Shown here: piece after piece, positions 10,960-57,793 of the stretch
Position numbering within the stretch: the stretch's first letter is position 1
Layout: each line of letters begins with the position of its first letter
DNA from: a virus
Strand: one strand, 5' to 3'
Virus genome (UHGV): UHGV-0211740
Length of the DNA stretch: 64,000 bases
The notes under the pieces: model-generated
What the model was told of the DNA's origin: nothing
The model's database searches: none
The model's input: the letters and a program-made list of their open reading frames with translations, nothing else
Position numbers and translations under genes: made by a program

Positions 10960-10966
10960 CTGTTTT

Positions 10967-10996
10967 GCCCTCGCTTCGGCGGGGGCTTTTTGTTTG
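10967..10996 (+). terminator. rho-independent terminator
   Basis: 8-bp stem with TTCG loop followed by TTTTTGTTTG. Confidence 0.6.
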
Positions 10997-10998
10997 TA

Positions 10999-11027
10999 TT
11001 GCGTATTAACTTAAAATCTGGTAAAAT
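10999..11027 (+). promoter_or_regulatory. putative promoter with extended -10 (TGG TAAAAT)
   Basis: TAAAAT preceded by TG; weak -35 TTGCGT at 17-nt spacing. Confidence 0.35.
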
Positions 11028-11058
11028 AACTATCATACTTGTTTAACCTGGAGGCACA

Positions 11059-11649
11059 ATGTTTTTATGGGAAAGGCCTAGATACCTTCCAGATATTAGA
11101 TTAGAGTTGCTGGCAGATATTGTCACGTTTAAAAGCCCGTTTACAGGTAAAACGCAAAAAGTAACCTATGCCACACCTAACTGGAAAGGCACTTTGACGG
11201 TTTCCAATATTAGCGAATCGCAGTTGCTTGAGCTCAAGAGTTTTGTTGACCAAGTTTACAAAGATGGGAATATCTTTCTTATCAAAACTTATGGTCATTC
11301 GGTGACAGCCAATGAGCCAATCGCTCTCGGACCGACTGGTAACGACGATTTTTTGAAGACGGTTGGTTGGGAGCCGAACAGGGATATAGCCAGAGCTGGG
11401 GATAAGATATCTGTTAATGATGAGTTGAAAGTGGTAACAGCTCCAGTACGTAGTGATGGTGTTGGGGCCGCTGTTATAAACATATCTCCAAGACTTAGGA
11501 AACCTATTGCAGCAGGGGATACTATGAAGATAATAACTCAATCCCCGAAGGGTAGGTTTCATATCAGAGATATTTATAAAATTAAGCAAAAAGTTGATGC
11601 TATGCAAAAAGGCGATAATATAGTTATCAATTTCTTTGAGGATTTCTAA
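11059..11649 (+). CDS. tail tip module protein (distal tail/minor tail-like, tentative)
   Basis: GGAGG RBS; first of three small genes before the J-like gene. Confidence 0.5.
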   Translation: MFLWERPRYLPDIRLELLADIVTFKSPFTGKTQKVTYATPNWKGTLTVSNISESQLLELKSFVDQVYKDGNIFLIKTYGHSVTANEPIALGPTGNDDFLKTVGWEPNRDIARAGDKISVNDELKVVTAPVRSDGVGAAVINISPRLRKPIAAGDTMKIITQSPKGRFHIRDIYKIKQKVDAMQKGDNIVINFFEDF

Positions 11650-11650
11650 G

Positions 11651-12202
11651 ATGATCAGAGCTCCATTAGATAATTTATTTATTGAAAATATAGAGCTTGA
11701 TGGCGTTGAGATCTTAATTGCTGCAAAACTGGAGCTACCAACAGGAACTGTCAGGGTGTGCTCAGGCACTGGTGTTGTAGTAATTGAAGGGCAACATTTT
11801 ATAGGTATAGGTGGATCAGCTACATTAACTGCTGTGTCGGAGAAAGATGCCACCAACTTCGGATCTGTGGTAGCAACATTGAACGGGTTTGACCCTAAAT
11901 ATGTTGGTGATTTGTTGAAGACTGAGTATTCAGGTTGTCGTGCCACGTTATACATTACAGCCATGGAGAATGGTCTGCCAGTAACCACTAATGGCTTGTT
12001 TGACGGACTTATAACAGATATGGCTATTCAGACAGGAGAGAATAGTGCTCTATCTATATCCATATCTTCAATCTTCAACAGCTGGCTAAGAGGGTTCCCT
12101 TATCGCTACACAGAAGAAAGTCATAGCTCAAGAAACGACAACGATAGATTTTTTAAATATGTGGATCAGGTGGCTAGTCGCCCGATCATTTGGGAGGTTT
12201 AA
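11651..12202 (+). CDS. tail tip module protein
   Basis: ORF track 11636..12202; ATG 11651 right after upstream stop with GAGGA RBS. Confidence 0.5.
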   Translation: MIRAPLDNLFIENIELDGVEILIAAKLELPTGTVRVCSGTGVVVIEGQHFIGIGGSATLTAVSEKDATNFGSVVATLNGFDPKYVGDLLKTEYSGCRATLYITAMENGLPVTTNGLFDGLITDMAIQTGENSALSISISSIFNSWLRGFPYRYTEESHSSRNDNDRFFKYVDQVASRPIIWEV

Positions 12203-12630
12203 TGAGTATCATACATCCTCGTTTAGTAGACTGGCAAGAAAGATTGTTGAAGGTGTTTGACGAAGAGTCAGCCGTTCCGTTCGAGTGGGGATTTCACGAT
12301 TGTTGCACTTTTGCAGCCAAGTGTGTTGATGCTCAGTATGGAACAGATATTCTCTCTAACTTCGAAGGCACGTACAAAACAGAACTGGAAAGTAAGAGAT
12401 GGTGTATGTTACATTTCAAAACCACCAACTTGCCTACCATTTTTGATCTCTTTATGACCAGACTGGATACTCCTAAACAGGTTCAGCGTGGAGATATTGT
12501 TATTTTCAAAGGTCTGAACGGACTTACCGCTGGCGTGTTTTGGAACAATCAGATTTGGTCAAAAGGTGATAAAGGGGTCTTTATGTTTGACATGAAAGAT
12601 TCTATCGTTGTTGATGTCTGGAGGTATTAA
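12202..12630 (+). CDS. putative tail-associated cysteine peptidase (NlpC/P60-like, tentative)
   Basis: ORF track 12190..12630; ATG 12202 with GGGAGG RBS; FHDCCTF motif; position like lambda gpK. Confidence 0.35.
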   Translation: MSIIHPRLVDWQERLLKVFDEESAVPFEWGFHDCCTFAAKCVDAQYGTDILSNFEGTYKTELESKRWCMLHFKTTNLPTIFDLFMTRLDTPKQVQRGDIVIFKGLNGLTAGVFWNNQIWSKGDKGVFMFDMKDSIVVDVWRY

Positions 12631-15600
12631 TGCCAATTGCAATGATTGATAACATCGTTGCTTCTGCAAGATCTTCGAGCTATGACTGGAACGCATCCAA
12701 GGCGGCTCTGGCTGACAGTCTGAACACTGTTACCACCAGAACTCTGGATAAGATTTTTGAGGGCAACAAATCTTACAGAGGCCAGCAAGATAGACAAAAG
12801 CTTCTCAGATCTTCAGCTGCACCTTGTTCTGTAGTGTATGGGAAGACACGCACATCGGGATTGCTTGCGTTTTTGGAGCAGGACAGGGACAGAACCCTCC
12901 ATTGTGCCATTGTTCTTGCCAATCACCCTCTGGAAGGTGTAGAAGACATACTTATCGACGGTAATCCTATTTCTTCATATGGAGATTTGGTATCGTGGGA
13001 GCTGCATAACGACAGAAAAACATCTGATCCTTTCATGGGGACACACTGCCCTTCGTGGTCACCAGACATGATAGGTAGAGGGATCAGTTGGCTGCGTGCC
13101 AGCTTCAAATTTGACCCTAACAAGTTTCCTTTTGGGTTGCCAAACGTTACACTCGTCAAGGTTGGTAAAAAATGCTATGATCCTCGCATCAGCAAAGAGG
13201 TGTATACCAATAACGCGGCCTTGGTGATTCTGGACTATTTAAGAACATACCTTAAATGTCCTGACGAAACCATCAACTGGGAGTCCTTCAAGGAAGCTGC
13301 CAACATATGTGACGAGGCTGTAAGAAACGCTGACGGAACCAGTGAGCGTCGTTACACCATCAATGGTGAGTTCGACATGGATGAGGCTCCAGCAAGCATC
13401 ATGGCAGAAATGCTGAAAGCCTGTGGTGCAGATCTTAGCTATGTGGCTGGTAAGTATGGATTGCTGGTTGGGGCCTATTATGGACCAGCAACAATGACAC
13501 TGGGTGAGGATTGTGTTTGTGGTGAAGTCAAGATCTATCCAGAAGCTTCCTTTGACAAAAGATCCAACACAATAACTGGTAGATTCACCAGTCCTGCCAA
13601 AGGATACTCTGAAACAGATTTCCCATCAGTGTTTGTTCCAGAGTGGATAGAGAAGGATGGGGAAAGAAAGATAATCGATATAGATTATCGTTTTGTCACC
13701 AGTCCTTATCAGGCCCAGCGTGTTTCCGCGATATTCTTAAGACGTGCCAGAGCTGGTAGGATTATTGAAGTCACGTGCAATATGCGTGGTTTTAAATTTA
13801 AGCCTGGACGCTACGTCACAATGAACCTCCCAAGTATTGGCATAGTAGGCCAAGAGATGAGAGTTCTTGAGTGGGAGTTCACTAAAAAGGGCGGTGTTAA
13901 GGTAAAACTTCGTCAAGATGCGAAAGAGTGGAATGATGCCACAGGTCAACTTCCTGACTCTGGTGATGTAGATATTCCTGTGTCCCCATCTGGTGTGGCT
14001 CAACCGCAAAACTTCAGATTCTCTGTTCTTCAAGCTGGAGAAGTAACTCATGGTGTTTTAGCTTGGGACAACGTTGGGACTTACGCTCAAAACATTGTGC
14101 AGGTCAGGAAAAATGGAGAGATTGTCTGGACAGCACAGACAGTTGAGCAGTTTGTCCGTGTTGAAGGTCTGACTAAAGGGTCTTACACAGCCACTGTTGT
14201 TGCAACATCTTATAAAGGCGGTGTATCTCCAGAAGCGTACTGTGAGTTTAACATTCAGGCACCTGAGGCTCCGGTTTCTGTAGAAGTTAAGCAGGGATAT
14301 TTTGCTATCACCTTAATTCCGCACAGCAGGGATTTAGCAAGTGTCAGCACCCAGTATGACTTTTGGACATCCGGCATGACAAGGTTGCCTGACACTAGTG
14401 ATGCAACCGTCACTTCAAAAGCTACTCGCATGGGTGTTGGTTCAACTTGGACATCTGAAGGTCTGCAGAACGATAAGGTTTATTATTGGTATATTCGAAC
14501 CACAAACGCTTTTGGTAGTTCTCAGTTTGTAGAGTGTGCTGCACGCTGCTATACCTCTATTGAAGATTTGATGCCTCAGATAGATGCTGAATTTAAAAAG
14601 ACAGAGACTTATAAAGAGTTGATGAGCACTTTAGATTCTTCTATCGAAGAGGTTGAAAATCGGGTCACAGAACTTAACAAGTACATGGATGGTAGAGTTG
14701 ATGAAGCTTTTGATCACATGGAAAGTGAGTTCTCTAGAGTAGACAAGCTGTATGCTCAGCTGGGAGATAGGGTAGGGGTATTCATCCAAGAAACCAGTGA
14801 AAACTTCCAAGATGTTAATGGAACGCTTACCGCTCTCGACCAGAAACTGGTAGCCACTCAGAACAAGTTTACAGATGATCTCTCTAAAGAAAGTGGCAAG
14901 CTAACCTCTCTGATCCAGACCACTAACAAAGCTACAACTGATCTTCTTAATAAGAAAACAGAAGCTTTGGACGAGAAGATTGTTTCGACCAGGGGCGAGT
15001 TGGAAGATGCTTTAGCACAGGAAAGCGCTGAGCTGAACTCTCTGATTGTATCTACCAATAAAACGACTACAGATCTCCTTAATCAGAAAACCGAGGCACT
15101 GGACAATAAGCTGACGGCAACGAAAGGTGAGTTGACCAACAACTTGAATAATGAGAGTGCTAAACTGTCGTCGTTGATTGAGACAACCAACAAATCCACC
15201 ACTGATCTTCTTAACAAGAAAACAGATGCGTTGGATGAAAAACTGGTTGCTGCACAGGGTGAGCTAACTGAGCAGATTGGCGATGTTGAAAAAGGTTATC
15301 TGGCTGGAGATAAGAGCCTAGAAGGTAAGTTGAATACTCAGAGATCTGAGTTGGATGCAAGCATTCTGAGTACTAATCAGGCTACTGTGGATTTGCTGAA
15401 TAGAACTTCTCAGACTCTTGACCAGAAGATTAGCCAGACTAACGCCACGGTATCTAAAAACTACACCACTCTAGATGGCAAGATCAACACCACCAAATCT
15501 GATCTCAATACGTTGATCTCTACCACCAACAAGGCCACAACGGACCTGCTGAATCAGAAAACTGCAGCCTTATCTGAACAATTAACCTCTGCTAAAGGGC

Positions 15601-41334: not shown

Positions 41335-42518
41335 TGTCAAGAAACGTATTTGAAAGTGGTCAAATTACTGTCCGCGAGTTGCCAGCTATTATTAAGTTTG
41401 CCCAACGGCATAATCGATCTGTTCTGATTTTAGGACCGATGGGTGTTGGGAAGAGCCAAGTGATGAAGCAGATCGCTGACAGCATGTTCGGTGAGCGAGA
41501 TGACAACCTGGTTGATGTTCGGCTGTCAGATAAAGACCCTGCTGACTTGTCTGGGTTACCTATCCCTGTAGAGTCGGATGGGACTACACGCACAGTGTTT
41601 GCAATTCCAGAATTTTGGCCTGCAGATCCGGACTGGAGCGGAATTATCTTCCTAGATGAGCTTACTCATGCAGATAACTACCTGCAGAAGGTTGCAATGC
41701 AAATTATGCTCGACCACAAGTGTGGCACCTATGCATTCCCTAAGAGTTCTGTTTTTGTAGCTGCAGGAAACCGTGCTACAGACGGTGCTGTTCTTTCGGC
41801 GCTAGAAGCTCCTCTAGCTAACCGCTTTATCATTGTAGAAGTTACAAGCAATGCAGAGGTGTTTATTGAGGACTATGCATTCCTTAATGGGGTGCACTCC
41901 TCGGTAATTGGATATCTGAAAAGAGTCCCATCAGCCATCGATAATTATGAGGCCATGGCTGAGATTAATTGTCCAGCTTTTGCTACACCGCGATCTTGGG
42001 TTGCTGCATCTGACATCCTGCACGATTTTGACAGCGGTATTATTTCTGACGCTATGGCTCGTGTTCTTCTGCAAGGTGCTATCGGTCACACTGCAGCGGT
42101 AGAAATCTGGACCTACCACACCAAGAAACGAAACTTGCCAGAAATCGGTCGGATTATGGCAGGGGGTTGCAAAGAGTATGTAGGTCCTAAGCAGCCAGAT
42201 ATTTTGTGGATTCTGGGGTCTGAAGGGTGTATCGCTATTCGTAACATGATGGAAAATGCAAGTATCTCCGACGAAGATCTTGTCAGCTGTGTGGCAAACT
42301 TCCTTGATTTCCTTTGGGAAAATTTCAAGGATGAGAACCGAGACTTTGTATTCTCAGTCTTTATGGCGATGATGAAACCCAACGCCCTAGGAAATGCCTT
42401 ACTTATTGGTAAAGGCCGGGACAAGATCGTTGCTCAGCTGATCAAAGCATACCCGAACCTGATGAAGATTGTAAAAGAGTTTGGTGAAGAGTTTAGCGCC
42501 ATTTTAGCTAAAGCTTGA
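41334..42518 (+). CDS. AAA+ ATPase, MoxR/AAA_5-like
   Basis: Walker A GPMGVGKSQ; Walker B IIFLDELTHA. Confidence 0.6.
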   Translation: MSRNVFESGQITVRELPAIIKFAQRHNRSVLILGPMGVGKSQVMKQIADSMFGERDDNLVDVRLSDKDPADLSGLPIPVESDGTTRTVFAIPEFWPADPDWSGIIFLDELTHADNYLQKVAMQIMLDHKCGTYAFPKSSVFVAAGNRATDGAVLSALEAPLANRFIIVEVTSNAEVFIEDYAFLNGVHSSVIGYLKRVPSAIDNYEAMAEINCPAFATPRSWVAASDILHDFDSGIISDAMARVLLQGAIGHTAAVEIWTYHTKKRNLPEIGRIMAGGCKEYVGPKQPDILWILGSEGCIAIRNMMENASISDEDLVSCVANFLDFLWENFKDENRDFVFSVFMAMMKPNALGNALLIGKGRDKIVAQLIKAYPNLMKIVKEFGEEFSAILAKA

Positions 42519-42527
42519 GGAGGTTGT

Positions 42528-42908
42528 ATGGCTAAAGTAGGTAAGCGGGGAAACTACTTGGTGGTATTGACCGAGGAGCCGGAGAAGGAGTACGAATGCA
42601 GCTCCACTTGCGTGATCGATATCCGAGAAAAAGATGTAGATGAAATCTGGTTTAAAATATTGGACGCTTGCGACAGCAGTGACTATTTCTTCATCTATGT
42701 CAACGATAAAGCGGGGTTCTTCCATGACGATGGAGAGTTACCGTATGAAATCTATGAACTTGTAGAGGCTTGCCATCGTGGAGATGCGGAGTTGTTTGGT
42801 CTACGGCTGAAAAGCGGTAAGTTCTTCTACCAAGACGAATGCATGAATCTTCACAACTTCGTAGAGGGAACTTGCAACGATGGAGAGATTCTGGCACACT
42901 ACGACTAA
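42528..42908 (+). CDS. hypothetical protein
   Basis: ORF track; GAGGAGG RBS. Confidence 0.5.
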   Translation: MAKVGKRGNYLVVLTEEPEKEYECSSTCVIDIREKDVDEIWFKILDACDSSDYFFIYVNDKAGFFHDDGELPYEIYELVEACHRGDAELFGLRLKSGKFFYQDECMNLHNFVEGTCNDGEILAHYD

Positions 42909-42922
42909 TTTCTAAGACCACC

Positions 42923-42950
42923 CCCCGCTTCGGCGGGGATTTTCTATTTG
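42923..42950 (+). terminator. rho-independent terminator
   Basis: CCCCGC-TTCG-GCGGGG then ATTTTCTATTT. Confidence 0.55.
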
Positions 42951-42958
42951 GAGTTATT

Positions 42959-43459
42959 GTGAAAATTAAAATCTTTGCTATTATTTTGAGCGCATTTTTA
43001 TCGCTGCCTGTTGTTGCAGCACCAAAACAAAAAGTATATCACACCTGCAAGCCATCGGATACTAAGGAAAACATTCTAGCATGCAATATCTACAGGGAGG
43101 CTAGAGGGGATGGCACGATGGGTATGCTGGCATCAGGGTTTGCCACACTAAACAGGAAATCTCACCCCAAATACCCGGACACCATAAGAAAGATTGTCTA
43201 CCAACCTAACCAGTTTTCGTGGACAAACCACGGCAAAACTTTTAAGGTGATAGAAAAAGATTCATGGGATCACGCTAAAAGTCTTGCAAAGATGCTTCTA
43301 AAGGTCTATAATAACAACCATGTTGCATACATGGCTATGGATATAACAGGTGGAGCAACACACTATCATACAACAAAAGTACGACCGAAATGGGCAAAAA
43401 AGATGCAGAGGACAGCCCAATTCGGGAGTCATATCTACTACAAGGAGCGCAATAAATGA
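42959..43459 (+). CDS. SleB/CwlJ-type cell wall hydrolase with N-terminal signal peptide
   Basis: ORF track 42839..43459; GTG 42959 after GGAG; signal-like KIKIFAIILSAFLSLPVVAAP; motifs NIYREARGDG...LNR...QFSW. Confidence 0.65.
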   Translation: MKIKIFAIILSAFLSLPVVAAPKQKVYHTCKPSDTKENILACNIYREARGDGTMGMLASGFATLNRKSHPKYPDTIRKIVYQPNQFSWTNHGKTFKVIEKDSWDHAKSLAKMLLKVYNNNHVAYMAMDITGGATHYHTTKVRPKWAKKMQRTAQFGSHIYYKERNK

Positions 43460-45438
43460 TTGTAAACAGTAATGAAACTAAAGCAGTGCTAACTGGGAAT
43501 TTGGAGGTCACAAGGGGATCAATTTCTCTGAACAAAGAGACTTTTGGGTTAATCATTAAAGGGATTTATGAAGATAAGGTGCTGGCAAGCTGCCGTGAAC
43601 CAATCTTCAATGCTGTGGACTCCCATGTTGAGTCTGGACGTGGTGATGTTCCGATCATCATTCACTCCCCTACAGATCTTGAACCATACTTCTTTGTGCA
43701 GGACGTTGGCCTCGGTATGTCAGAAGAGATGGTCCGCAACACTTTCATGAACCTCGGTGAGTCAACCAAGCGCAACAGCAACGCTCTGGTAGGCAATAAA
43801 GGTGTTGGTTCAAAGGCCCCGTTCAGCATGGTAGACACTTTCGATGTAATCAGTGTGCACAATGGTGTGGAAAGCACATACCTATTGTTCTTGGATCAGG
43901 GCATCCCAAATGTCACCAAGATCCGTGAGCGGAAGACTGAAGAGCACAACGGGGTAAAAGTTCAGTTTCATGTTAAGAAAGAGCATGTTCTGAAATATCG
44001 CACTGCTATTGCATCATGTCTGCGCTATGCAAAATTCCCGTTCACCGTCACCGATCCAATGACGAGCAAAATGCTGGAGGGGGATAAGGTAGAGGCGCAG
44101 TATTATTATGAAAAAGATGGTTGGAAGATGACCATCCTGAAGGGCTATACCAGCTCTGACGAGAGTCGTGTGGTAATGGGTCACCAACCTTACCGTTCTA
44201 AGTTCCTGGAAACACTAACAGATTATCCTGCAATTTGTGTAGAGATCCCTATCGGAGACTGCAATATTAACCCAGGGCGTGAATGGACCATAGAAGGTCA
44301 CGATGATGGTGGATTCCAAGAGCGTTTGGAAGCTTTTGTCAAAGAAGGTATTCGCCTTCGTGGAGCAGAAGTTGTTGCAGAACTGGAGACAGCAAAAACA
44401 TCCTCAGAAGCACGCGAGATGATGAAGAACAGTGGAGTGTTCGGGCACATTTTCGGTAAGAATTTTATGTATAACCGTTGGGAAGAAACAGGGTTAGGTA
44501 GTTTGGGGGACTGCGAGATCTTCGCGGGTGGCTTAAATAAAGGCCGCATAGGCTACGCTTGTTACGGAAAGGTAGAATTCTTACGAGGAGTCTATTTAGT
44601 ATTTAACGACGGAGACGGTAAATATAACCGAAATAAGTGTAACTACTTAAGCGAGATCACCGGACGCAACGTTTTCTATTGCCGGAACACGGATCTGGTA
44701 AAAGAGTTTAAAGAGGCGGCACACCATCCGTTCTTTGCAGATACGGTCAAATTGTTATCAGAGCTCCCTCGCCGACCTGTGAAGAAAGGTGAAACAAAAA
44801 CTCGTTATGAGCCCGGTTATTGGGTTAAAAAACTTGAGAAGGATGGTTACTTCCGTCGTGAGCGTATTACCAAGGCAGAGTTCAGGAAGATTAAGCACTG
44901 CATACCGTATGAGGGGGATATCCAACGTGGAAGTTGTTGGCTAGGTCAGATGAGCAACATCTACCAGCAAGATTATGACCGTGTGCGTGCAGCACTTCAG
45001 ATCCCTGAAGGGGAAGATCTGTACCTGGTATCGGAATCTCGTCTGCTTTGGACTGATCCTAATTGCCAATATGTTACAGAGAAGAATGTGGAACATTTGT
45101 TGAAAGAGGATGCTTGGAAATTCTTACTGACTCGCGCAGCAAATGAAACTTCATACGACAGCCTGTACAGACAGTTAGGTAAAATTATACCCATGCAGGA
45201 TTTTGGAAATTATCGGCCACATTTCCACAAGTGGGAAGGTAGCACCACGTGGAAGTACGGTGAGCTGAATCATCGTGCCAAAGTCTTAATCGCCAACCGA
45301 GTTAAGTGCGGGAAGGCCTATATTGCAAGATTGGAAAAGAAATATCCACTTTTAAAGCATGTGGGCTTGAAATATTGGGACACTCCTGCTATGATTGAAT
45401 ACCGTGAACTGATTGATACAAAGAATAACATCAAATAA
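43456..45438 (+). CDS. GHKL-family ATPase domain protein (Hsp90/MORC/histidine-kinase-like fold)
   Basis: Bergerat-fold motifs in order: EPIFNAVDS, DVGLGMS, GNKGVGSKAPFS. Confidence 0.5.
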   Translation: MIVNSNETKAVLTGNLEVTRGSISLNKETFGLIIKGIYEDKVLASCREPIFNAVDSHVESGRGDVPIIIHSPTDLEPYFFVQDVGLGMSEEMVRNTFMNLGESTKRNSNALVGNKGVGSKAPFSMVDTFDVISVHNGVESTYLLFLDQGIPNVTKIRERKTEEHNGVKVQFHVKKEHVLKYRTAIASCLRYAKFPFTVTDPMTSKMLEGDKVEAQYYYEKDGWKMTILKGYTSSDESRVVMGHQPYRSKFLETLTDYPAICVEIPIGDCNINPGREWTIEGHDDGGFQERLEAFVKEGIRLRGAEVVAELETAKTSSEAREMMKNSGVFGHIFGKNFMYNRWEETGLGSLGDCEIFAGGLNKGRIGYACYGKVEFLRGVYLVFNDGDGKYNRNKCNYLSEITGRNVFYCRNTDLVKEFKEAAHHPFFADTVKLLSELPRRPVKKGETKTRYEPGYWVKKLEKDGYFRRERITKAEFRKIKHCIPYEGDIQRGSCWLGQMSNIYQQDYDRVRAALQIPEGEDLYLVSESRLLWTDPNCQYVTEKNVEHLLKEDAWKFLLTRAANETSYDSLYRQLGKIIPMQDFGNYRPHFHKWEGSTTWKYGELNHRAKVLIANRVKCGKAYIARLEKKYPLLKHVGLKYWDTPAMIEYRELIDTKNNIK

Positions 45439-45448
45439 GGAGACCAAG

Positions 45449-46654
45449 ATGATTTTCATCTACGAACATTTCAAAACCCGTAAAGAAGCACGAGACCGCC
45501 GTGCAGAACTTGAGAAGAAGGGTTTCACATGTGCCATTGAGAAAGGAGACACAACCTGGACACTGGCAGTGGGTGCCCCAGAGTTGTTCGATCCTGACCG
45601 TGACAGCGTCTGCTACACCCGTGAGGATTTTGAAACCCGTGAAGAGGCCCGTTTATTTCGATATGGACTGGAAGATAACGGTAAGTACGCCATGATCTTA
45701 GACTTAGGCGAAGGTTCCGTTAAACGTTGGGGCGTGGTATACCCACTGTGTGTTGTTCACGGTGTGGGGTTCACTGGGGTAGCAGTTAAGTCAGAAGAAC
45801 CTTCGGTAGAAGTCAAAGACCCGGTGCTGGAGGTGGTGAGCAGTGTGTCTCAGCAACAGACTCGAAGCATCGAGCCTTTGGTAGTTATTTGTGGAGAACT
45901 CCTCCAGATCACCTGCAACGAAGGTATTTTTGAAATTCGCCGTAGCGAAAGTGAGGAAGTTTACCAGAAAGTCTTCGACCATATCTCTGTTCAGGAATAT
46001 GACGAGGCAATTGGTGAAATCCTTATCTGGCTGGAACGCAAGAATGAGTTCACTACACTGGCAGACAACCTGATCATGAAAGATGGTAAGCTCTACTACT
46101 ACGGTGTAGAGATGCGATCTACCATTGCAAAGAAAATTGAGAAAGATTATGCAGATGGAACACTGGATGACCGCTATGTGAAATTCCTAGTTCGCCTGTT
46201 ACGCAATCCGTCTGCAAAATCTGTAAACATGCTCTACGATTTTATGCAGGCAAACGACATTCAGATTGCAGAAGATGGTCGAATCATTTGCTACAAAGGG
46301 GTTCAGTTTAACGGCGACAAGTGGGTGGATTGGCACAGTGGTAAAGTCCCACAATACCAGGGAGCTTTTGTATCCATGCCTCGTAACTTTGTAGAGGATG
46401 ATCCGGAAGCTGCATGCTCTTATGGTCTGCACTGTGCCAGCAAAGAGTATGCAAAGAGCTACGGCACTGTGATGACGGTTATGGTTGACCCTGCCGATGT
46501 AGTCAGTGTACCTTACCAACACAACAGCGCTAAGTGCCGTGCATGCCGCTACGAAATCGTAGTAGCTCCAGAATCGCGCAAAGATGGAGACCCAATCGAG
46601 TACGTGGTTGACCGCGACGGTAACACTATCGACATTATCTACGAGGAGGCGTAA
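45449..46654 (+). CDS. hypothetical protein with two N-terminal ~45-aa repeats
   Basis: ORF track 45413..46654; ATG 45449 after AAGGAG; repeated FKTRKEARDRRAELEKKGF / FETREEARLFRYGLEDNGKY modules. Confidence 0.5.
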   Translation: MIFIYEHFKTRKEARDRRAELEKKGFTCAIEKGDTTWTLAVGAPELFDPDRDSVCYTREDFETREEARLFRYGLEDNGKYAMILDLGEGSVKRWGVVYPLCVVHGVGFTGVAVKSEEPSVEVKDPVLEVVSSVSQQQTRSIEPLVVICGELLQITCNEGIFEIRRSESEEVYQKVFDHISVQEYDEAIGEILIWLERKNEFTTLADNLIMKDGKLYYYGVEMRSTIAKKIEKDYADGTLDDRYVKFLVRLLRNPSAKSVNMLYDFMQANDIQIAEDGRIICYKGVQFNGDKWVDWHSGKVPQYQGAFVSMPRNFVEDDPEAACSYGLHCASKEYAKSYGTVMTVMVDPADVVSVPYQHNSAKCRACRYEIVVAPESRKDGDPIEYVVDRDGNTIDIIYEEA

Positions 46655-52557: not shown

Positions 52558-54981
52558 ATGAGTATGTGGTCTTTCGACCTGGAGGCCTCTGGTTTACTAG
52601 AAGACCTAGATCTTTATTATCACTGCGGCTTGTTTAAAGAGTTGAATAAGAACCGTTTTATGCTGTTCCTTCCTCTAAATGACCGCACACACTACTCTGA
52701 AGAGGATATAGAGAAGGCTAAGAACTTTATTCTGGCAAAGAAAACTCTTTATAAAGATTTTGAAGTTCGCATAGCAGATTTTTCAGAGTTGGAAGGTTGG
52801 CTTACAGGCAATTCTGACTGGTCACCCACAGCTTTGAACTGCCACAACTGCTACAGCTACGACTTTATGCTGATGGAGAGATTGTCCGGTATTCATTTTG
52901 ATATGTTCCGTGATCCTAAGTGTATGGGAACTATCAACGACCACCAGGTTAATCTGTTTGATACATTGGCTATGAGCCGAATCTTGTGGCCTGACCGACC
53001 TTTGCCAAAAGGTTGTCCAGACTCAGTATTCAACCCAGTTACTAAGAAAATGCAACCTGTTGGACCTCACGGTCTTATGGCATGGGGCTATGCTCTTGGT
53101 AACCAAAAAGTTCAAATTGATGACTGGCGCGAGCTTCCGTTGTGGAAGTATGTGGATCGTGTGTTCGAGGACGTTATCATCCAAGAGCTACTCTGGAAAG
53201 AGTTGGTAGCGGAATCAAAAGGTGTATTCTACGGCAAATCTGACATGCAGAACTTTATGTACGATCCTGCCAAAGAGAAGCCGAAAGGGTTCAAAAAGAT
53301 CACCTGGAAGAATGCATTGCGTCGAGGCATGCTGCAGCACTTCCTGATGGAGCTGCAGGCCCGTCAGGGTGTGTATTTTGACATAGACGGGGCTATTGCT
53401 TTACGTGACCGCTGTGATGCGTGGATGAAGGAGATCGCTGATCGTGTTGAACCTCAACTCCCTTTAAAAGAGTTATCAATATCTCAGCGGCCTAAATTCC
53501 CTGAAAAGCCGTTTAACCAAGATGGGACAATTTCCAATAACGGCTGGAAATGGTTAAAAGATAAACTTGGCTATCCTGTGGACATGAGCGCTTTAGAGTT
53601 CAAAGCCCCGCCTAAGCGAGCATTTACCTCCACAGGAGATGTCAGTAAAATGGGGATAAAATGGTGTGAAGAGATGGGCTGCAAAGACCCAGACAAGATG
53701 GCTGATTTCTTGAGGGGGTATATTAAAGGCACCTCCACACCACACCCTTTACCTAAAGAGCTGATGGATCAGGCAATAAGTGATCTGCAGCAGAAGCGAA
53801 TGCCGGAATGCAAGATACCTATGAAAATCAGCAATCAGGACGATATTAAGCGATACCTGATCAGTGCTGGTTGGCTTCCAACAATGTGGAGAACTAAAGA
53901 TGTAACTAAAGACAGTAAGAAGAAAGCTTTACCTGATGCAGATGTTGATGCACGAGTATATGCATATATGGACGAGCTTTTAGAGTCAGAGTATTGTGAC
54001 CTGATTATCAACTTCTGGAACAAAACTGATGCTAAGTTCCAGACAACTGTGCACAAGTTCCGAAGCTTCCCTAACTCCGAAAGGATTAAAAAAGAAGTAT
54101 TCGGGAAAATACGTAGAAAAGCCAGGGCACTTATCACTTCTCCACAACTGAAAGATACGTTTGGGCACCTGTGCCCGAATCTTGAAAAATTGAACGGAGA
54201 AATGGCTAAGGACATCGTCTTGTGGTTATCCTTGCGAAACCGCAGGTCGGTCCTTGATCCAATCAAGGAGGATAAGGTTGATACTGGTCTTCTTAATCAT
54301 CCACGTTTGAAGATTGACCATAAGCTTCCTGCTAAAAGCTCTGGATTAACAAACACTTCCAGACAGAAACACAGTATTTGTGCAAACATGCCTAAACCAT
54401 CTCCGAAAGTGGTTATGGGTAAAGAGATGCGTAGTCTGTGGGGTGTTCCTCCTGGATACTTTGAGATCGGTATTGACGGGTCCAACTTAGAGCAGCTTAT
54501 CGGGGCTTGGGGTGCCTTTGAGTTCGACAACGGCCTGTATTATGATGTTGTAAGTAACGGGGACGCGCACCAAAACAATGCTGAGGCGTATACAAAAGTA
54601 GCAGGAAGAGAGGTATCTCGTAATGACGGTAAACCTATCACGTATGGGGTTATGTACGGGGCACAAAAAGATAAAGTTGCAGACATGCTGGATATCTCTC
54701 CAGAATTGGGACAAAAGGTAATCGATGCTCTCTGGGATGCTAACCCCGGCCTTAAGGGGCGTAAAGAGGACTTGGAGAAATTCTGGGAAGCAACAGGTAA
54801 GAAATTTATCTACTCTTTTGATGGTCATGCCATCTGGACCCGCTCTAAACACTCTTTGCTTAATGCATACCAACAAAATGGCGGTGCATCGTTGTGTGAC
54901 TTGGTTGGGATACTCATGCACCACCAGATGGTGAAGCGTGGGTGGTATGATGAAGGTGTTCGTCGTATTATTTATTACCAT
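52558..54981 (+). CDS. DNA polymerase, family A, exon 1 (3'-5' exo domain to first half of motif C)
   Basis: Exo I SFDLEASG; motif B RNDGKPITYGVMYGAQ; ends ...RRIIYYH then an in-frame stop. Confidence 0.75.
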
Positions 54982-55257
54982 AAATAACATTGTGGCTTCA
55001 TAGAGCAATCTATGTCGAATAACCTCTTTAACTGCGGGAAGCCTAAACCTTATGGCAAGGTAATCCGCAACGAAGCGCTCAAAAGAGCGAACGCTCAGAG
55101 GCCATTCCGAAAGGAAGTAGACCAGCAAGTGCGGTCGAAATGGGAGGGTTCCTATGGTTGTTTACCCTAGGAATGTGAGATGGTCCGATCCTACGTGAAA
55201 ACGTATGGCTATGCACGTAATGGTGCGGGGTAGCTTAACGACCTACCTGAACTATTG
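54982..55257 (+). other. putative group I self-splicing intron (276 nt, no ORF) in the DNA polymerase gene
   Basis: Exons in the same frame; joining gives RRIIYYH-DEYQLQV (motif C); 5' exon ends in U, intron ends in G; IGS GUGG; P-like ACUGCGGGAA and Q-like AAUCCGCAAC. Confidence 0.6.
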
Positions 55258-55611
55258 GATGAGTACCAACTTCAAGTACCTGATACACCTAAATATAAAA
55301 CTGTGTACACCTTCGACACAATTGAAGAGTTGGAGGAGTTCAAAGCCAAGCAGGAAGCCAAACTTCATGTGTTCGACGGTCATAAGTACAAAAAGGCACG
55401 CAAGGATGAGGATGGAAACGAAGTAGTTGACAGTAATGGGAATACGGTATACGATCCTATCCTGAACGATGACGGAAAGCTTGAACTTATCTGGAGCCCT
55501 GTGGGTGAAATGGTGGTACATTGCTTCTGGCAAGCGTCTAAAATGATGGGAGTCCCATTCCAGATCACAGGTGAGTACTTGTGTGGTCGTAACTGGGGTG
55601 ATTGTCACTAA
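55258..55611 (+). CDS. DNA polymerase, family A, exon 2 (second half of motif C to C-terminus)
   Basis: In frame with exon 1; begins DEYQLQV; ends GRNWGDCH, like the Pol I terminus. Confidence 0.65.
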   Translation, partial: DEYQLQVPDTPKYKTVYTFDTIEELEEFKAKQEAKLHVFDGHKYKKARKDEDGNEVVDSNGNTVYDPILNDDGKLELIWSPVGEMVVHCFWQASKMMGVPFQITGEYLCGRNWGDCH

Positions 55612-55660
55612 TGTAAACTATCAGCACAGGGAGGTGCTGTTGAGCAGAGAGGAGACTTTT

Positions 55661-55945
55661 ATGGTAGTAGAACCAACAAAAACATTTACATCCATGACTA
55701 TTCCTGTTATTATGCAGGTGAAATGCGTTCAGGTGTCCCAAGTATGGCCAGGTACTAAAATACCAACAGGGCCAGATTTCTTTCAAGTTGACAAAGTGTA
55801 CAATGTCTGGAAGGCACCAGACTGCTACCCTTTCATTAAAGATGACCGTGGAATGCTGTGGTATCTGGGAAATGATTTGACACTACATCTCGGAAATGCT
55901 ATTATTGCAGTGTTCCAGCTTAATAAGAAGGAGACAGATCAATGA
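55661..55945 (+). CDS. hypothetical small protein
   Basis: ORF track 55571..55945; ATG 55661 after GAGAGGAG. Confidence 0.45.
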   Translation: MVVEPTKTFTSMTIPVIMQVKCVQVSQVWPGTKIPTGPDFFQVDKVYNVWKAPDCYPFIKDDRGMLWYLGNDLTLHLGNAIIAVFQLNKKETDQ

Positions 55946-56169
55946 TAACTTTTGTTAAAGCTACGTTTGTAGAAGAAAAGATGACAGACCTATCGTTCTT
56001 TAAAGAAGGTAAGGTCTACAAGGTTTATTACGACAAGGATCGCAGAAACAATATGATCGAAGACGAGGAAGGTATCGCCTGGTTTATCTCCCATCTGGCA
56101 AACGGTGAGTATCATATCTATGGGACCACCCTGCTTGCCAAGTTTGTAGCTGTGGAAGAGAGCCTATGA
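55942..56169 (+). CDS. hypothetical small protein
   Basis: ORF track; AAGGAGA RBS. Confidence 0.45.
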   Translation: MITFVKATFVEEKMTDLSFFKEGKVYKVYYDKDRRNNMIEDEEGIAWFISHLANGEYHIYGTTLLAKFVAVEESL

Positions 56170-56360
56170 AAGTAAAGTATCTGGCTGAGGGCATGAGTAG
56201 GTATTTTACCCTTGGAGAGGAATATTGGCCCTTTACAAGTAACGGCGATGTCTACGTGAAAGATAATTTCGGCACGCCGTGGTTTCTGCACTCTAATGGG
56301 CTGGGATACTCCATTTACTGCGGTGCAGTGAACAACACAACTCTTGCAGAGTTTGTATAG
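56166..56360 (+). CDS. hypothetical small protein
   Basis: ORF track; 4-nt overlap. Confidence 0.4.
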   Translation: MKVKYLAEGMSRYFTLGEEYWPFTSNGDVYVKDNFGTPWFLHSNGLGYSIYCGAVNNTTLAEFV

Positions 56361-56370
56361 AGGAGGTAGA

Positions 56371-56742
56371 ATGTTAGTAAAAGGTACCCACACAGTCAAA
56401 CAACGTATCGAAGTTGAGATCGATGACTGCGAGCTGAAGCATATTTTACGGTCATGCTCCAACGTTTTGCTCCTTAGTATTCTCCAGGAGCGAGCGGAGA
56501 ACGAGTTCTTAAATGCACTGGCAGGCCGCCCTGGTGACTTCTGTGTGCGTAAGCGTGGTGACAACAAGTCATGGTTGTGGGAAATCGATGCCGACTGGGA
56601 TTACCACAAAAATGAGGGTATAGATGAGCCTATTCGTGAATTGACAGACAAAGAGGTGCAGATGTACAATGAAGTTTGTCATTGGGCAACACGCCAACAA
56701 ATTTACCTCGACCCTGTGTGGCTGATTGAAAATAGCCATTGA
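56371..56742 (+). CDS. hypothetical protein
   Basis: ORF track 56344..56742; ATG 56371 after AGGAGG. Confidence 0.5.
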   Translation: MLVKGTHTVKQRIEVEIDDCELKHILRSCSNVLLLSILQERAENEFLNALAGRPGDFCVRKRGDNKSWLWEIDADWDYHKNEGIDEPIRELTDKEVQMYNEVCHWATRQQIYLDPVWLIENSH

Positions 56743-56767
56743 CAAGAAGTAAGATTAGATATAAGAT
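56739..56767 (+). promoter_or_regulatory. sigma70-like promoter TTGACA-17-TAAGAT
   Basis: Read directly; -35 overlaps upstream stop. Confidence 0.5.
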
Positions 56768-56818
56768 GCTTCACACAAACAGAGCGTTGATTTTTAAATA
56801 ACCAAGGAGACTGCCAAG

Positions 56819-57001
56819 ATGAAAATTACTTTGAAGCCAGAATGCGTTGCAAATGACCGAGCTTTTAAAGATTGCACAGTCGGTGCAATTTATGAAGCAG
56901 AGTTTTGTGAGAACCCTCTGGTAAAAGCCCTTCTGGAAGAAGGGGCCCCTTTATCACAAGAAGAGATTGATGGAAAACTCAGCACAGTGCCTTACCTTTA
57001 A
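56819..57001 (+). CDS. hypothetical small protein
   Basis: AAGGAGA RBS; downstream of promoter. Confidence 0.45.
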   Translation: MKITLKPECVANDRAFKDCTVGAIYEAEFCENPLVKALLEEGAPLSQEEIDGKLSTVPYL

Positions 57002-57071
57002 AGATGATGAAGGAGACTCTGTCTGGTGCACTGTTAATGAAGTAGTTTTTGTAAAACCTGAACATTAATAC

Positions 57072-57100
57072 TTGACAACAGTGATGGGGCCTAATATAAT
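57072..57100 (+). promoter_or_regulatory. consensus sigma70 promoter TTGACA-17-TATAAT
   Basis: Perfect hexamers with 17-nt spacer. Confidence 0.6.
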
Positions 57101-57131
57101 GGCCCTATCAAAACGAAAGGGGACCACAGCA

Positions 57132-57392
57132 ATGACCAAACAATATCAACGAATTAAAGCCAAGGTTAAGCCAGACTATCTGGAGAAGGACTCTGCTTTT
57201 CGGGACTGCACAGCTGACAAAGTTTACACAGGGGCCGTCCTGTTGAACGATGAACTTGAAGTAGGTGTGCTTGGCAAAGAGGCCGTCATCGAGGATGACA
57301 AAGGGGACTGTGTTTTCTGCACCACACGTGAGCTAGAAGTCTTAGAATACTTCGGTGAAATCTTCAACTCCTTAGATGACGAGGCAGAGTGA
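57132..57392 (+). CDS. hypothetical small protein
   Basis: ORF track 57072..57392 begins inside the promoter; ATG 57132 with AAAGGGGA RBS. Confidence 0.5.
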   Translation: MTKQYQRIKAKVKPDYLEKDSAFRDCTADKVYTGAVLLNDELEVGVLGKEAVIEDDKGDCVFCTTRELEVLEYFGEIFNSLDDEAE

Positions 57393-57793
57393 TGAAAAAC
57401 ATTTGGGATATTAATATCTTTGAAGCCTCTGAGCTTGACGGTGCTGATGGGGTTATTATGGTTTCTGATGGAAAGGCCACGCTGACCTCTGGACTGACCT
57501 ATAATGACACTACCTACGTACTGGGAGATCTTGCCTTGTTGAAATCGACAGGTGACTCTCTGGAAGAACGTCTGCAAGGATTTGCCTTTAAAGAAGGCAC
57601 AAACACCACGCTAATGTGCACCACACGCACTGTTCAGTTGGGCAACGGGGTATATATGGTCATTGCAGTGTGTCCTAAATTCAGCAACGTCAACAAAGAT
57701 GATGCTGACGCTGTCAACGATGTGGTTGTTCTCTTCGTGGGTGACGCTATGGCAGATTTGATGAATGCAGGAGAAGCAGCAAATGAAGACTGA
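57389..57793 (+). CDS. hypothetical protein
   Basis: ORF track; 4-nt overlap. Confidence 0.45.
   Translation: MMKNIWDINIFEASELDGADGVIMVSDGKATLTSGLTYNDTTYVLGDLALLKSTGDSLEERLQGFAFKEGTNTTLMCTTRTVQLGNGVYMVIAVCPKFSNVNKDDADAVNDVVVLFVGDAMADLMNAGEAANED

What the first reader, a model, noticed from the sequence alone, without database searches (positions are those of the whole stretch)
42923..43459. Secreted SleB-type cell-wall hydrolase inside the DNA metabolism block
The product has a signal-peptide-like N-terminus and SleB/CwlJ motifs (EARGDG ... NR ... QFSW). It follows a terminator and uses a GTG start, which may keep expression low. It is far from the structural genes and no holin is adjacent.
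Basis: partly seen in the sequence, partly recalled or inferred. Interest (0 to 1): 0.45.

Follow-up and report, generated by a model that had tools for sequence, protein, structure and literature searches.

The report
Secreted second cell-wall hydrolase of rV5-like phage
This is the already annotated "cell wall hydrolase" (gp2) of rV5-like E. coli phages, a small exported enzyme with the SleB fold that is additional to the phage's ordinary endolysin and appears wired for very low expression.

Summary
A 166-codon gene (42959-43459, + strand) starts at GTG behind a GGAG ribosome-binding site. It encodes a typical cleavable signal peptide followed by one Hydrolase_2 (SleB/CwlJ-type) domain: Pfam E=3e-19, AlphaFold pLDDT 95, and SleB catalytic domains are the only structural matches. 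The reported start, 42923, is the first base of an intrinsic terminator, not of the gene.

The window is a Vequintavirus (rV5-like coliphage). The gene is rV5 gp2, annotated "cell wall hydrolase, PF07486" in 2013, and the terminator is rV5 t003. A signal peptide and toxicity on expression have been reported for the Pectobacterium phage CB7 homologue. So the finding is correct but already known.

It is not the main endolysin. These phages carry a separate, biochemically verified lysozyme (gp89/LysECP26) and spanins elsewhere in the genome.

What I add is comparative. Across related genera the gene sits directly after a terminator, usually starts with GTG or TTG, and carries a sigma70-like promoter in its 3' half that would serve the downstream genes. 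The ancestral order is hydrolase, small two-helix membrane protein, rIIA, rIIB; this phage lacks the membrane gene.

Best reading: an accessory, Sec-exported peptidoglycan-cleaving enzyme kept at very low dose. Enzyme activity and biological role are untested.

The parts
42923..42948 (+). Intrinsic terminator-like hairpin: a 6 G-C pair stem with UUCG loop at 42923-42938, then the tail ATTTTCTATT. It ends the MoxR/gp3 transcript.
   Evidence: Found by the scan. It forms in the RNA fold. The sequence is identical to terminator t003 predicted in rV5 (PMC3606486 Table S4). Hairpins in the equivalent position occur in Mydovirus, Seunavirus, Certrevirus, Pakpunavirus and uncultured relatives.
42950..42953 (+). 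Shine-Dalgarno GGAG, five bases before the GTG start.
   Evidence: Read from the sequence. The same GGAG-spacer-start layout is seen in relatives.
42959..43459 (+). Hydrolase gene (166 aa, GTG start, TGA stop), equal to rV5 gp2.
   Evidence: It is 98.8% identical to about 116 phage records annotated as cell wall hydrolase, SleB or endolysin. rV5 Table S3 lists gene 2 as 166 aa with PF07486.
42959..43018 (+). Predicted cleavable Sec signal peptide (residues 1-20, cleavage VVA|AP).
   Evidence: n-region charge +2; h-region IFAIILSAFLSLPVV with Kyte-Doolittle mean 2.6; 59% I/L/V/F/M and 35% G/A/S/T residues; one -3/-1 site; no lipobox. Of 105 relatives with room for a leader, 98 have an N-terminal hydrophobic segment.
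43064..43447 (+). SleB-fold catalytic domain (residues about 36-163). It contains the catalytic-type Glu47 (43097-43099), NR (43151-43156) and QFSW (43211-43222).
   Evidence: phmmer aligns residues 38-160 to the B. cereus SleB catalytic domain 4F55, with E47 opposite the Glu of YGESRGE. The AlphaFold model has pLDDT 95.1. Foldseek matches only 4F55 and 4FET, with probability 1.0 and target-normalised TM 0.74-0.80. E47 and R66 are invariant in 92 sequences.
43046..43084 (+). Cys30 (43046-43048) and Cys42 (43082-43084), a candidate periplasmic disulfide pair.
   Evidence: C42 is invariant and C30 at least 90% conserved in the close subfamily. In the 92-sequence alignment C30 occurs only together with C42, in 21 of 21 cases. 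The disulfide itself is an inference.
43284..43312 (+). Sigma70-like promoter TTGCAA-17-TATAAT (10 of 12) inside the 3' half of the gene, a candidate promoter for rIIA-rIIB.
   Evidence: Found. In a relative with 58 of 501 nucleotide differences in the gene, the stretch 43252-43318 has a single change and both hexamers are intact. An analogous TTGACA-17-TATTAT (11 of 12) lies inside the hydrolase gene of a Seunavirus-like locus, and a weaker one in a Mydovirus-like locus. It is not experimentally mapped.
43456..45438 (+). rIIA homologue. Its ATG overlaps the hydrolase stop (ATGA).
   Evidence: PHROG 612 RIIA E=6e-124. Pfam HATPase_c_3. Annotated as rIIA in relatives.
45449..46654 (+). rIIB homologue.
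   Evidence: PHROG 609 RIIB E=1.3e-61. Annotated as rIIB in relatives.
42528..42908 (+). Upstream 126-aa acidic protein (rV5 gp3, T5.083-like), the last gene before the terminator.
   Evidence: PHROG 12370, unknown function. rV5 Table S3. It is not conserved next to the hydrolase in other genera.

Best explanation
The gene encodes the rV5 gp2-type accessory lysin, a 19-kDa precursor.

Shown by sequence features: the N-terminal signal peptide has the properties that direct export through Sec. Inferred: it is cut after Ala20, releasing a basic (pI about 10), 146-residue, single-domain enzyme into the periplasm.

Shown by sequence, profile and predicted structure: the domain has the SleB/CwlJ (Hydrolase_2) fold with the conserved catalytic-type glutamate (E47). 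Inferred by homology with SleB, a lytic transglycosylase: it most likely cleaves the glycan strands of peptidoglycan.

It is a second wall-degrading enzyme, not the phage's principal endolysin. That role belongs to a cytoplasmic lambda-R-like lysozyme (rV5 gp89/LysECP26) encoded elsewhere.

Inferred, with comparative support: a freely soluble periplasmic hydrolase has no holin gate and no membrane tether, so the phage limits it by dose. The gene sits directly after an intrinsic terminator with no room for a promoter of its own. It uses a weak GTG start. The next promoter-like site lies inside its own 3' half and would serve rIIA/rIIB. The enzyme would therefore be made only from terminator read-through of the early/middle operon.

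Inferred with low certainty: this low periplasmic dose weakens or remodels the sacculus during infection and contributes to the timing or completeness of lysis.
For: Identity:
- Pfam Hydrolase_2 E=3.4e-19 and PHROG endolysin family 938.
- Alignment to the SleB catalytic domain with Glu conserved.
- pLDDT 95 model whose only PDB matches are SleB.
- Invariant E47 and R66.

Export:
- Signal-peptide anatomy.
- Leaders in 98 of 105 relatives.
- Conserved Cys pair.
- A signal peptide and toxicity on expression are reported for the CB7 homologue (PMC7344957).

Accessory status:
- A separate 156-aa lysozyme and Rz/Rz1 lie at other loci of the same genus.
- rV5 gp89 is named as the lysin (PMC3606486).
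- LysECP26 was purified and is lytic (PMC9728275).
- T5-like and Pakpunavirus phages also carry this hydrolase among early or nucleotide-metabolism genes.

Low-dose design:
- Terminator immediately upstream.
- Only about 10 nt between the T-tail and the Shine-Dalgarno site.
- A GTG or TTG start in nine diverged lineages, against about 10% non-ATG in neighbouring genes.
- Internal promoter-like site under nucleotide-level conservation, with an analogue in a Seunavirus-like locus.
Against: - No enzymatic activity, export, cleavage, transcript map or knockout phenotype exists for this protein or a close homologue. The CB7 toxicity is 'data not shown'.
- Bacillus SleB needs muramic-delta-lactam, which E. 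coli peptidoglycan lacks, so bond specificity cannot simply be transferred.
- The signal-peptide call is rule-based.
- Promoter and terminator calls are consensus matches. In the 5-kb scan their number equals the shuffle expectation.
- The non-ATG lineages are phylogenetically related, so the enrichment is not nine independent events. Certrevirus, T5-like and Pakpunavirus homologues use ATG.
- Many database records simply call the protein 'endolysin'.
Confidence: 0.6

Rival explanations
1. It is the phage's principal endolysin, as many GenBank and RefSeq records label it. It would be exported by Sec ahead of time and triggered at the end of infection, as with the secreted endolysin Lys44 of Oenococcus phage fOg44.
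For: PHROG 938 is an 'endolysin' family. RefSeq re-annotations name the gene endolysin. The homologue CR3_087 is said to be implicated in host lysis. In small phages, such as the 44-kb Vibrio phage VEN, a Hydrolase_2 protein may be the only lysin. More distant relatives carry SAR-like N-termini typical of true endolysins.
Against: The same genomes encode a lambda-R-like lysozyme that has been purified and shown to be lytic. The hydrolase lies in the early/middle operon, behind a terminator and with a weak start codon. The rV5 authors did not include it in their lysis section.
Confidence: 0.15
2. It forms part of an ancestral envelope and lysis-timing module together with rIIA/rIIB, and with a small two-helix membrane protein in sister genera. 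The hydrolase would damage or remodel the wall and the rII proteins would counteract or sense the consequences. Its purpose would be control of timing or superinfection rather than bulk lysis.
For: The order hydrolase, 51-77 aa membrane protein, rIIA, rIIB is conserved across Mydovirus, Seunavirus and uncultured relatives. In this genus the hydrolase and rIIA overlap directly at ATGA. The membrane protein has holin-like features: two hydrophobic helices, and a charged C-terminus in Seunavirus.
Against: Synteny alone does not show function. Certrevirus keeps the hydrolase and membrane gene without rII. T5-like and Pakpunavirus homologues are not next to rII. The internal promoter suggests that the hydrolase and rII are transcriptionally uncoupled.
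Confidence: 0.15
3. It is a SAR (signal-anchor-release) endolysin. The N-terminal helix would stay uncleaved in the membrane and hold the enzyme inactive until a pinholin depolarises the membrane.
For: Predicted signal sequences in lysins of Gram-negative phages are usually read as SAR domains (PMC8223927). Distant family members do look SAR-like.
Against: The h-region is strongly hydrophobic (59% I/L/V/F/M, 35% G/A/S/T), not Gly/Ala-rich. It is followed by a Pro-containing c-region with a canonical VVA|A site. No pinholin-like gene lies nearby in this phage.
Confidence: 0.05
4. It is a virion-associated lysin used to pierce the wall during DNA injection.
For: Phage particles often carry peptidoglycan hydrolases. 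The window contains the tail module.
Against: A Sec signal peptide sends the protein out of the cytoplasm where virions assemble. The gene is about 11 kb from the tail genes, in the early/middle operon. gp2 is not among the virion proteins named from rV5 mass spectrometry. A gp25-like baseplate lysozyme is the proposed virion lysin in this subfamily.
Confidence: 0.03

Closest known systems
rV5 gp2 'cell wall hydrolase' and its Vequintavirinae orthologues (for example CB7_83, CR3_087)
   Same: It is the same gene: 166 aa, 98.8% identity, the same position upstream of rIIA, and the same upstream terminator t003. The signal peptide and toxicity on expression are already noted for CB7_83.
   Different: Nothing of substance. 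The published descriptions stop at annotation. The conserved layout of terminator, weak start codon and internal promoter, and the loss of the adjacent membrane gene in Vequintavirus, are not described in the papers I read.
Bacillus SleB catalytic domain (PDB 4F55, 4FET; Pfam PF07486), a germination-specific lytic transglycosylase
   Same: The fold is the same (Foldseek probability 1.0, target-normalised TM 0.74-0.80). The catalytic-type Glu lies in the conserved Y-x-E-[AS]-R-G motif. The NR and QFS[WY] motifs are present.
   Different: Identity is only 23-24%. There is no N-terminal PG_binding_1 domain. The host has no spores, so the substrate cannot be muramic-delta-lactam cortex. There is no YpeB partner. 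Export uses a simple signal peptide.
Sec-exported, signal-peptide endolysins such as Lys44 of Oenococcus phage fOg44 (recalled from my own knowledge, not read here)
   Same: A lysin with a cleavable N-terminal signal peptide that reaches the wall compartment without a holin.
   Different: Lys44 has a different catalytic family and a Gram-positive host, and it is that phage's only endolysin. Here the protein is additional to a cytoplasmic lysozyme and sits in an early/middle operon.
SAR endolysins (P1 Lyz, phage 21 R21; recalled from my own knowledge)
   Same: Sec-dependent, holin-independent delivery of a lysin to the periplasm of a Gram-negative host. Distant Hydrolase_2 relatives appear to use this mode.
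   Different: The leader here is strongly hydrophobic and has a signal-peptidase site. It is not a weakly hydrophobic, releasable anchor.
rV5 gp89 / LysECP26, the canonical endolysin of the same phages
   Same: It targets the same wall in the same infection cycle.
   Different: It belongs to an unrelated family (lambda-R-like lysozyme), has no signal sequence, is encoded about 68 kb away in APECc02 coordinates and outside this window, and has been biochemically verified.

Membership tests
Pfam Hydrolase_2 (PF07486, SleB/CwlJ catalytic domain) | Profile match above the curated gathering score | tested here: met
   69.8 bits against a cut-off of 27, E=3.4e-19, residues 51-161 covering profile positions 2-100 of 100.
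Pfam Hydrolase_2 (PF07486, SleB/CwlJ catalytic domain) | Conserved catalytic-type glutamate in the Y-x-E-[AS]-R-G motif | tested here: met
   E47 aligns with the Glu of YGESRGE in 4F55 and 4FET. It is invariant in 92 of 92 relatives.
Pfam Hydrolase_2 (PF07486, SleB/CwlJ catalytic domain) | SleB catalytic-domain fold | tested here: met
   AlphaFold model with pLDDT 95.1. Foldseek against the PDB returns only 4F55, 4FET_A and 4FET_B with E<=1.6e-4, probability 1.0 and target-normalised TM 0.74-0.80.
Bacillus SleB proper (spore cortex-lytic enzyme) | N-terminal peptidoglycan-binding domain (PG_binding_1) before the catalytic domain | tested here: not met
   Pfam finds only Hydrolase_2. Only about 15 residues separate the predicted signal-peptide cleavage site from the catalytic domain.
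Bacillus SleB proper (spore cortex-lytic enzyme) | Lytic transglycosylase activity that depends on muramic-delta-lactam | not testable with these tools
   This needs muropeptide analysis. The host E. coli has no cortex peptidoglycan, so this specificity is implausible (established knowledge).
Phage endolysin (functional class) | Degrades host peptidoglycan and is required for lysis at the end of the cycle | not testable with these tools
   The only indirect evidence is toxicity of the CB7 homologue on expression ('data not shown'). A separate verified endolysin exists in this genus.
Phage endolysin (functional class) | Located in a lysis cassette or late operon with a holin and spanins | tested here: not met
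   The gene lies in the MoxR-rIIA-rIIB-helicase operon. No holin-like, spanin or lysozyme homologue is in the window. The spanins sit next to the terminase elsewhere in the genome.
Signal-peptide (Sec-secreted) lysins | Cleavable N-terminal signal peptide with n-, h- and c-regions and a -3/-1 site | tested here: met
   MKIK / IFAIILSAFLSLPVV / PVVA|AP, with a single candidate cleavage site and no lipobox. This is rule-based; SignalP was not available.
SAR endolysins | Weakly hydrophobic, Gly/Ala/Ser-rich N-terminal transmembrane domain without a signal-peptidase site | tested here: not met
   The h-region is 59% I/L/V/F/M and 35% G/A/S/T, with Kyte-Doolittle mean 2.6 over 15 residues and a canonical cleavage site.

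The most novel reading that the evidence does not exclude
In Vequintavirinae and allied large myoviruses the secreted Hydrolase_2 enzyme is deliberately held in a transcriptional and translational 'shadow'. It sits directly behind a terminator, has a GTG/TTG (in one lineage possibly ATC) start, and the next promoter is embedded in its own 3' end. It also belongs to an ancestral module of hydrolase, small membrane protein, rIIA and rIIB that sets envelope integrity or lysis timing. That would give the long-enigmatic rII proteins a physically linked enzymatic partner outside T4.
Probability: 0.2. Interest if true: 0.55.

Novelty: already known. Interest (0 to 1): 0.25.

Why it matters
As stated, the finding adds nothing new. 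The gene, its Pfam domain and its terminator were published with the rV5 genome, and the signal peptide was noted for a homologue.

Its residual value is practical and comparative:
- Rule-based automatic annotation mislabels this protein as 'the endolysin', or truncates it to an internal ATG that removes the signal peptide. This matters for groups mining rV5-like phages for enzybiotics.
- Several unrelated families of virulent phages keep a second, exported wall hydrolase among early genes, and nobody knows why.
- The conserved low-expression layout and the linkage to rIIA/rIIB give a concrete, testable handle on that question.

Tried and rejected
- Single-sequence AlphaFold gave an unusable model (pLDDT 47.7). 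It was replaced by the alignment-based run.
- The word-indexed homologue search returned only 10 proteins. The exhaustive representative search was needed.
A 16-sequence subfamily alignment worked.
- Rfam found nothing in 42400-43600. The 5' region fold is no more stable than shuffles (z=-0.77), so I make no claim for a riboregulator beyond the terminator hairpin. An MFE pairing that occludes the GGAG was seen but is weak and was not pursued.
- I considered whether the upstream gp3 (T5.083-like) and the hydrolase form a conserved pair, because T5-like phages also have the hydrolase. I rejected this: the T5-like, Mydovirus and Pakpunavirus upstream genes are unrelated.
- I considered a relocated copy of the small membrane gene in the window. 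tblastn found none.
- Literature searches for transcriptomes of Vequintavirinae found nothing usable.

Full report
**What is at the coordinates**

The + strand carries a 166-codon ORF that starts at GTG 42959 and ends with TGA at 43457-43459. GGAG at 42950-42953 lies five bases upstream of the start. A longer in-frame ORF from ATG 42839 exists. It can be dismissed because it runs through the 3' end of the preceding gene and through a hairpin, and because the GTG start yields a textbook secretory N-terminus.

The finding's start coordinate, 42923, is the first base of that hairpin. The stem-loop is CCCCGCTTCGGCGGGG, with six G-C pairs and a UUCG loop, followed by ATTTTCTATT. The hairpin forms in the predicted RNA fold. 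So the finding's span covers terminator plus gene.

**Is it a SleB-type hydrolase?**

Yes, by every computational test available.
- Pfam Hydrolase_2 scores 69.8 bits against a cut-off of 27 (E=3.4e-19).
- The best PHROG is the 'endolysin' family 938 (E=2.9e-27).
- phmmer against PDB sequences finds only the SleB catalytic domains of B. cereus and B. anthracis.
- An exhaustive search finds 11,195 cluster representatives at E<=0.001.
- In a 92-sequence alignment E47 and R66 are invariant.
- AlphaFold failed on the single sequence (pLDDT 48). With the alignment it gives pLDDT 95.1. Foldseek against the PDB then returns only 4F55 and 4FET, with probability 1.0 and target-normalised TM 0.74-0.80.

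**Is it secreted?**

The N-terminus reads MKIK (+2 charge), then a 15-17 residue strongly hydrophobic core (IFAIILSAFLSLPVV), then a Pro-containing c-region. There is a single site that satisfies the -3/-1 rule, VVA|AP after residue 20, and no lipobox.

The leader is not Gly/Ala-rich like SAR domains. The mature protein would be 146 residues with pI about 10.

Of 105 relatives that have room for a leader, 98 have an N-terminal hydrophobic segment. Cys30 and Cys42 are conserved as a pair in the close subfamily, which is consistent with a periplasmic disulfide. No dedicated signal-peptide predictor was available, so this call is rule-based.

**What genome is this, and is the gene known?**

The window is 93-96% identical to more than 100 Vequintavirus (rV5-like) coliphage genomes. 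The protein is 98.8% identical to about 116 records, annotated variously as 'cell wall hydrolase', 'SleB' or 'endolysin'.

In the rV5 paper it is gene 2: 'cell wall hydrolase', 166 aa, PF07486 (PMC3606486 Table S3). The hairpin is that paper's terminator t003, with identical sequence (Table S4).

For the Pectobacterium phage CB7 homologue, Buttimer et al. report three things (PMC7344957). Homologues occur in all genera of Vequintavirinae. The protein has a signal peptide. It is toxic when expressed in E. coli (data not shown). The finding is therefore correct but already known.

**Is it the endolysin?**

Probably not the principal one. The same genus encodes a 156-aa lambda-R-like lysozyme beside the DNA ligase gene and an Rz/Rz1 pair beside the terminase. 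Both lie far outside this window.

The rV5 authors named that lysozyme (gp89) as 'an obvious lysin' and did not mention gp2 in their lysis section. Its orthologue LysECP26 has been purified and lyses EDTA-treated Gram-negative cells (PMC9728275).

The hydrolase lies in the + strand operon that runs MoxR ATPase, gp3, hydrolase, rIIA, rIIB, helicase, primase, DNA polymerase. The rIIA start overlaps the hydrolase stop (ATGA at 43456).

More precisely, the gene sits at the head of that block, next to the rII genes.

T5-like Epseptimavirus and Pseudomonas Pakpunavirus phages also carry a leader-bearing Hydrolase_2 gene among early or nucleotide-metabolism genes. A second, exported hydrolase is thus a recurrent feature of large virulent phages.

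**Regulatory anatomy (the part that goes beyond the literature I read)**

Only about 10 nt separate the terminator's T-tail from the Shine-Dalgarno site, which leaves no room for a promoter. The rV5 promoter table lists none between gene 10 and gene 231 on this strand.

I compared eight annotated genera and 80 IMG/VR loci.
- A GC-rich hairpin with a T-run directly precedes the gene in Vequintavirus, Mydovirus, Seunavirus, Certrevirus, Pakpunavirus and several uncultured lineages.
- In Justusliebigvirus and Phapecoctavirus a terminator is followed by a promoter-like site.
- The start codon is GTG or TTG in nine diverged lineages (38-98% protein identity to the window).
- It is ATG in Certrevirus, T5-like phages and Pakpunavirus.
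- Annotated neighbouring genes use non-ATG starts about 10% of the time (4 of 57; 11 of 89).
- More distant relatives with Gly/Ala/Ser/Thr-rich, SAR-like leaders use ATG.

Inside the gene, a sigma70-like site, TTGCAA-17-TATAAT at 43284-43312, lies in a patch of unusual nucleotide conservation. A relative differs at 58 of 501 positions in the gene, yet the 67 nt from 43252 to 43318 carry a single change, and that change is in the spacer. This is a post hoc observation.

A Seunavirus-like locus has TTGACA-17-TATTAT (11 of 12) in the same half of its hydrolase gene. A Mydovirus-like locus has a weaker site.

Taken together, the hydrolase appears to sit between a terminator and the promoter for the next genes. 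It would be expressed only by read-through and from a weak start codon. All of this is inference from consensus matches and comparison. In the 5-kb scan the number of promoter-like and terminator-like sites equals the shuffle expectation, and the lineages are not independent.

**Synteny**

In Mydovirus, Seunavirus and two uncultured lineages the order is hydrolase, a 51-77 aa protein with two hydrophobic helices, rIIA, rIIB. In Seunavirus the small protein has a charged C-terminus, which is holin-like. Certrevirus has the hydrolase and a membrane protein but no rII genes. The CB7 paper proposed that membrane protein as a class II holin.

Vequintavirus, including this window, lacks the small gene. 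No homologue is found in rV5-like records or in the window. So 'no holin adjacent' is true here but is a derived state.

**Mechanism and rivals**

I commit to the following model.
- The protein is a Sec-exported, signal-peptidase-processed, soluble periplasmic glycan-strand-cleaving enzyme of the SleB fold.
- It acts as an accessory lysin.
- Because it has no holin gate and no membrane tether, the phage limits it by dose rather than by compartment.

Identity and export are well supported. Bond specificity, timing and biological role are inferred. SleB's own substrate, muramic-delta-lactam, is absent from E. coli, so specificity cannot simply be transferred.

The rivals are:
- principal endolysin (0.15);
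- partner in an rII-linked envelope or lysis-timing module (0.15);
- SAR endolysin (0.05; the leader test was not met);
- virion lysin (0.03; it has a signal peptide, lies in an early operon, and is not among the virion proteins named from rV5 mass spectrometry).

**Verdict**

The novelty class is 'already known' (rV5 gp2). Interest is low to moderate. It rests on the unexplained recurrence of a second exported hydrolase in virulent phages and on the conserved low-expression architecture described here.

Noticed in passing
L014, L015 and L092 (Klebsiella phages BIS47 and KNP2); L092:1621-1660: In this Mydovirus lineage an extra 200-aa gene (BIS47_240) replaces the terminator and runs into the hydrolase 5' end. 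The intact hydrolase reading frame has no ATG, GTG or TTG before its signal peptide. The only candidate start is ATC at L092:1637, five bases after GGGAGG. GenBank annotates the gene from an internal ATG, which drops the leader.
   Followed up: partly
L008:2501-3031 (Salmonella phage KE22) and L092:1787-2170 (BIS47): Deposited annotations start the hydrolase at an internal ATG (at 'MYREARGE' in KE22). This removes the TTG-initiated signal peptide. The adjacent 51-57 aa two-helix membrane gene is unannotated in many Mydovirus records (feature listed as 'none').
   Followed up: partly
phage collection hits H21-H30, H59-H64 (MG0656xx records): Sixteen to 23 GenBank records named 'Campylobacter phage', with host given as C. 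jejuni, are 93-99% identical to rV5-like coliphages over this region. This looks like mislabelled or contaminating phages rather than true Campylobacter viruses.
   Followed up: no
window 42959-43029: The signal-peptide coding stretch and the upstream terminator and Shine-Dalgarno site are almost free of substitutions in a relative that differs at 11.6% of positions over the gene (2 changes in the first 71 nt, none in 42971-43029). This suggests constraint on the translation-initiation region at the nucleotide level.
   Followed up: no
L003:17967-18437 (APECc02 canonical endolysin, outside the window): Pfam hmmscan returned no family at E<=0.01 for this 156-aa lysozyme, although the rV5 paper cites pfam00959 and LysECP26 is biochemically active. 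In APECc02 the following 68-aa 'lysozyme' CDS may be a separate fragment.
   Followed up: no
window about 53900-57500 (by offset from APECc02 10946-14565; not verified in the window): The DNA polymerase gene of relatives is split. It is joined from two pieces in MaxTheCat, and an HNH endonuclease lies between the fragments in APECc02. This indicates an intron or intein-like insertion that is probably also present in the window.
   Followed up: no
L010:2400-2500 and L011:2390-2482 (Justusliebigvirus, Phapecoctavirus): Here the hydrolase (TTG start) is preceded by a terminator hairpin and then a promoter-like TTGCAA-N17-TTACAAT/TATACT. This is a different solution from the promoter-less arrangement in the window.
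   Followed up: no
window 42528-42908: The gene before the terminator encodes a 126-aa, acidic, Cys-rich protein. It is rV5 gp3, in PHROG 12370, and similar to T5.083. Its function is unknown, and it is not linked to the hydrolase in other genera.
   Followed up: partly
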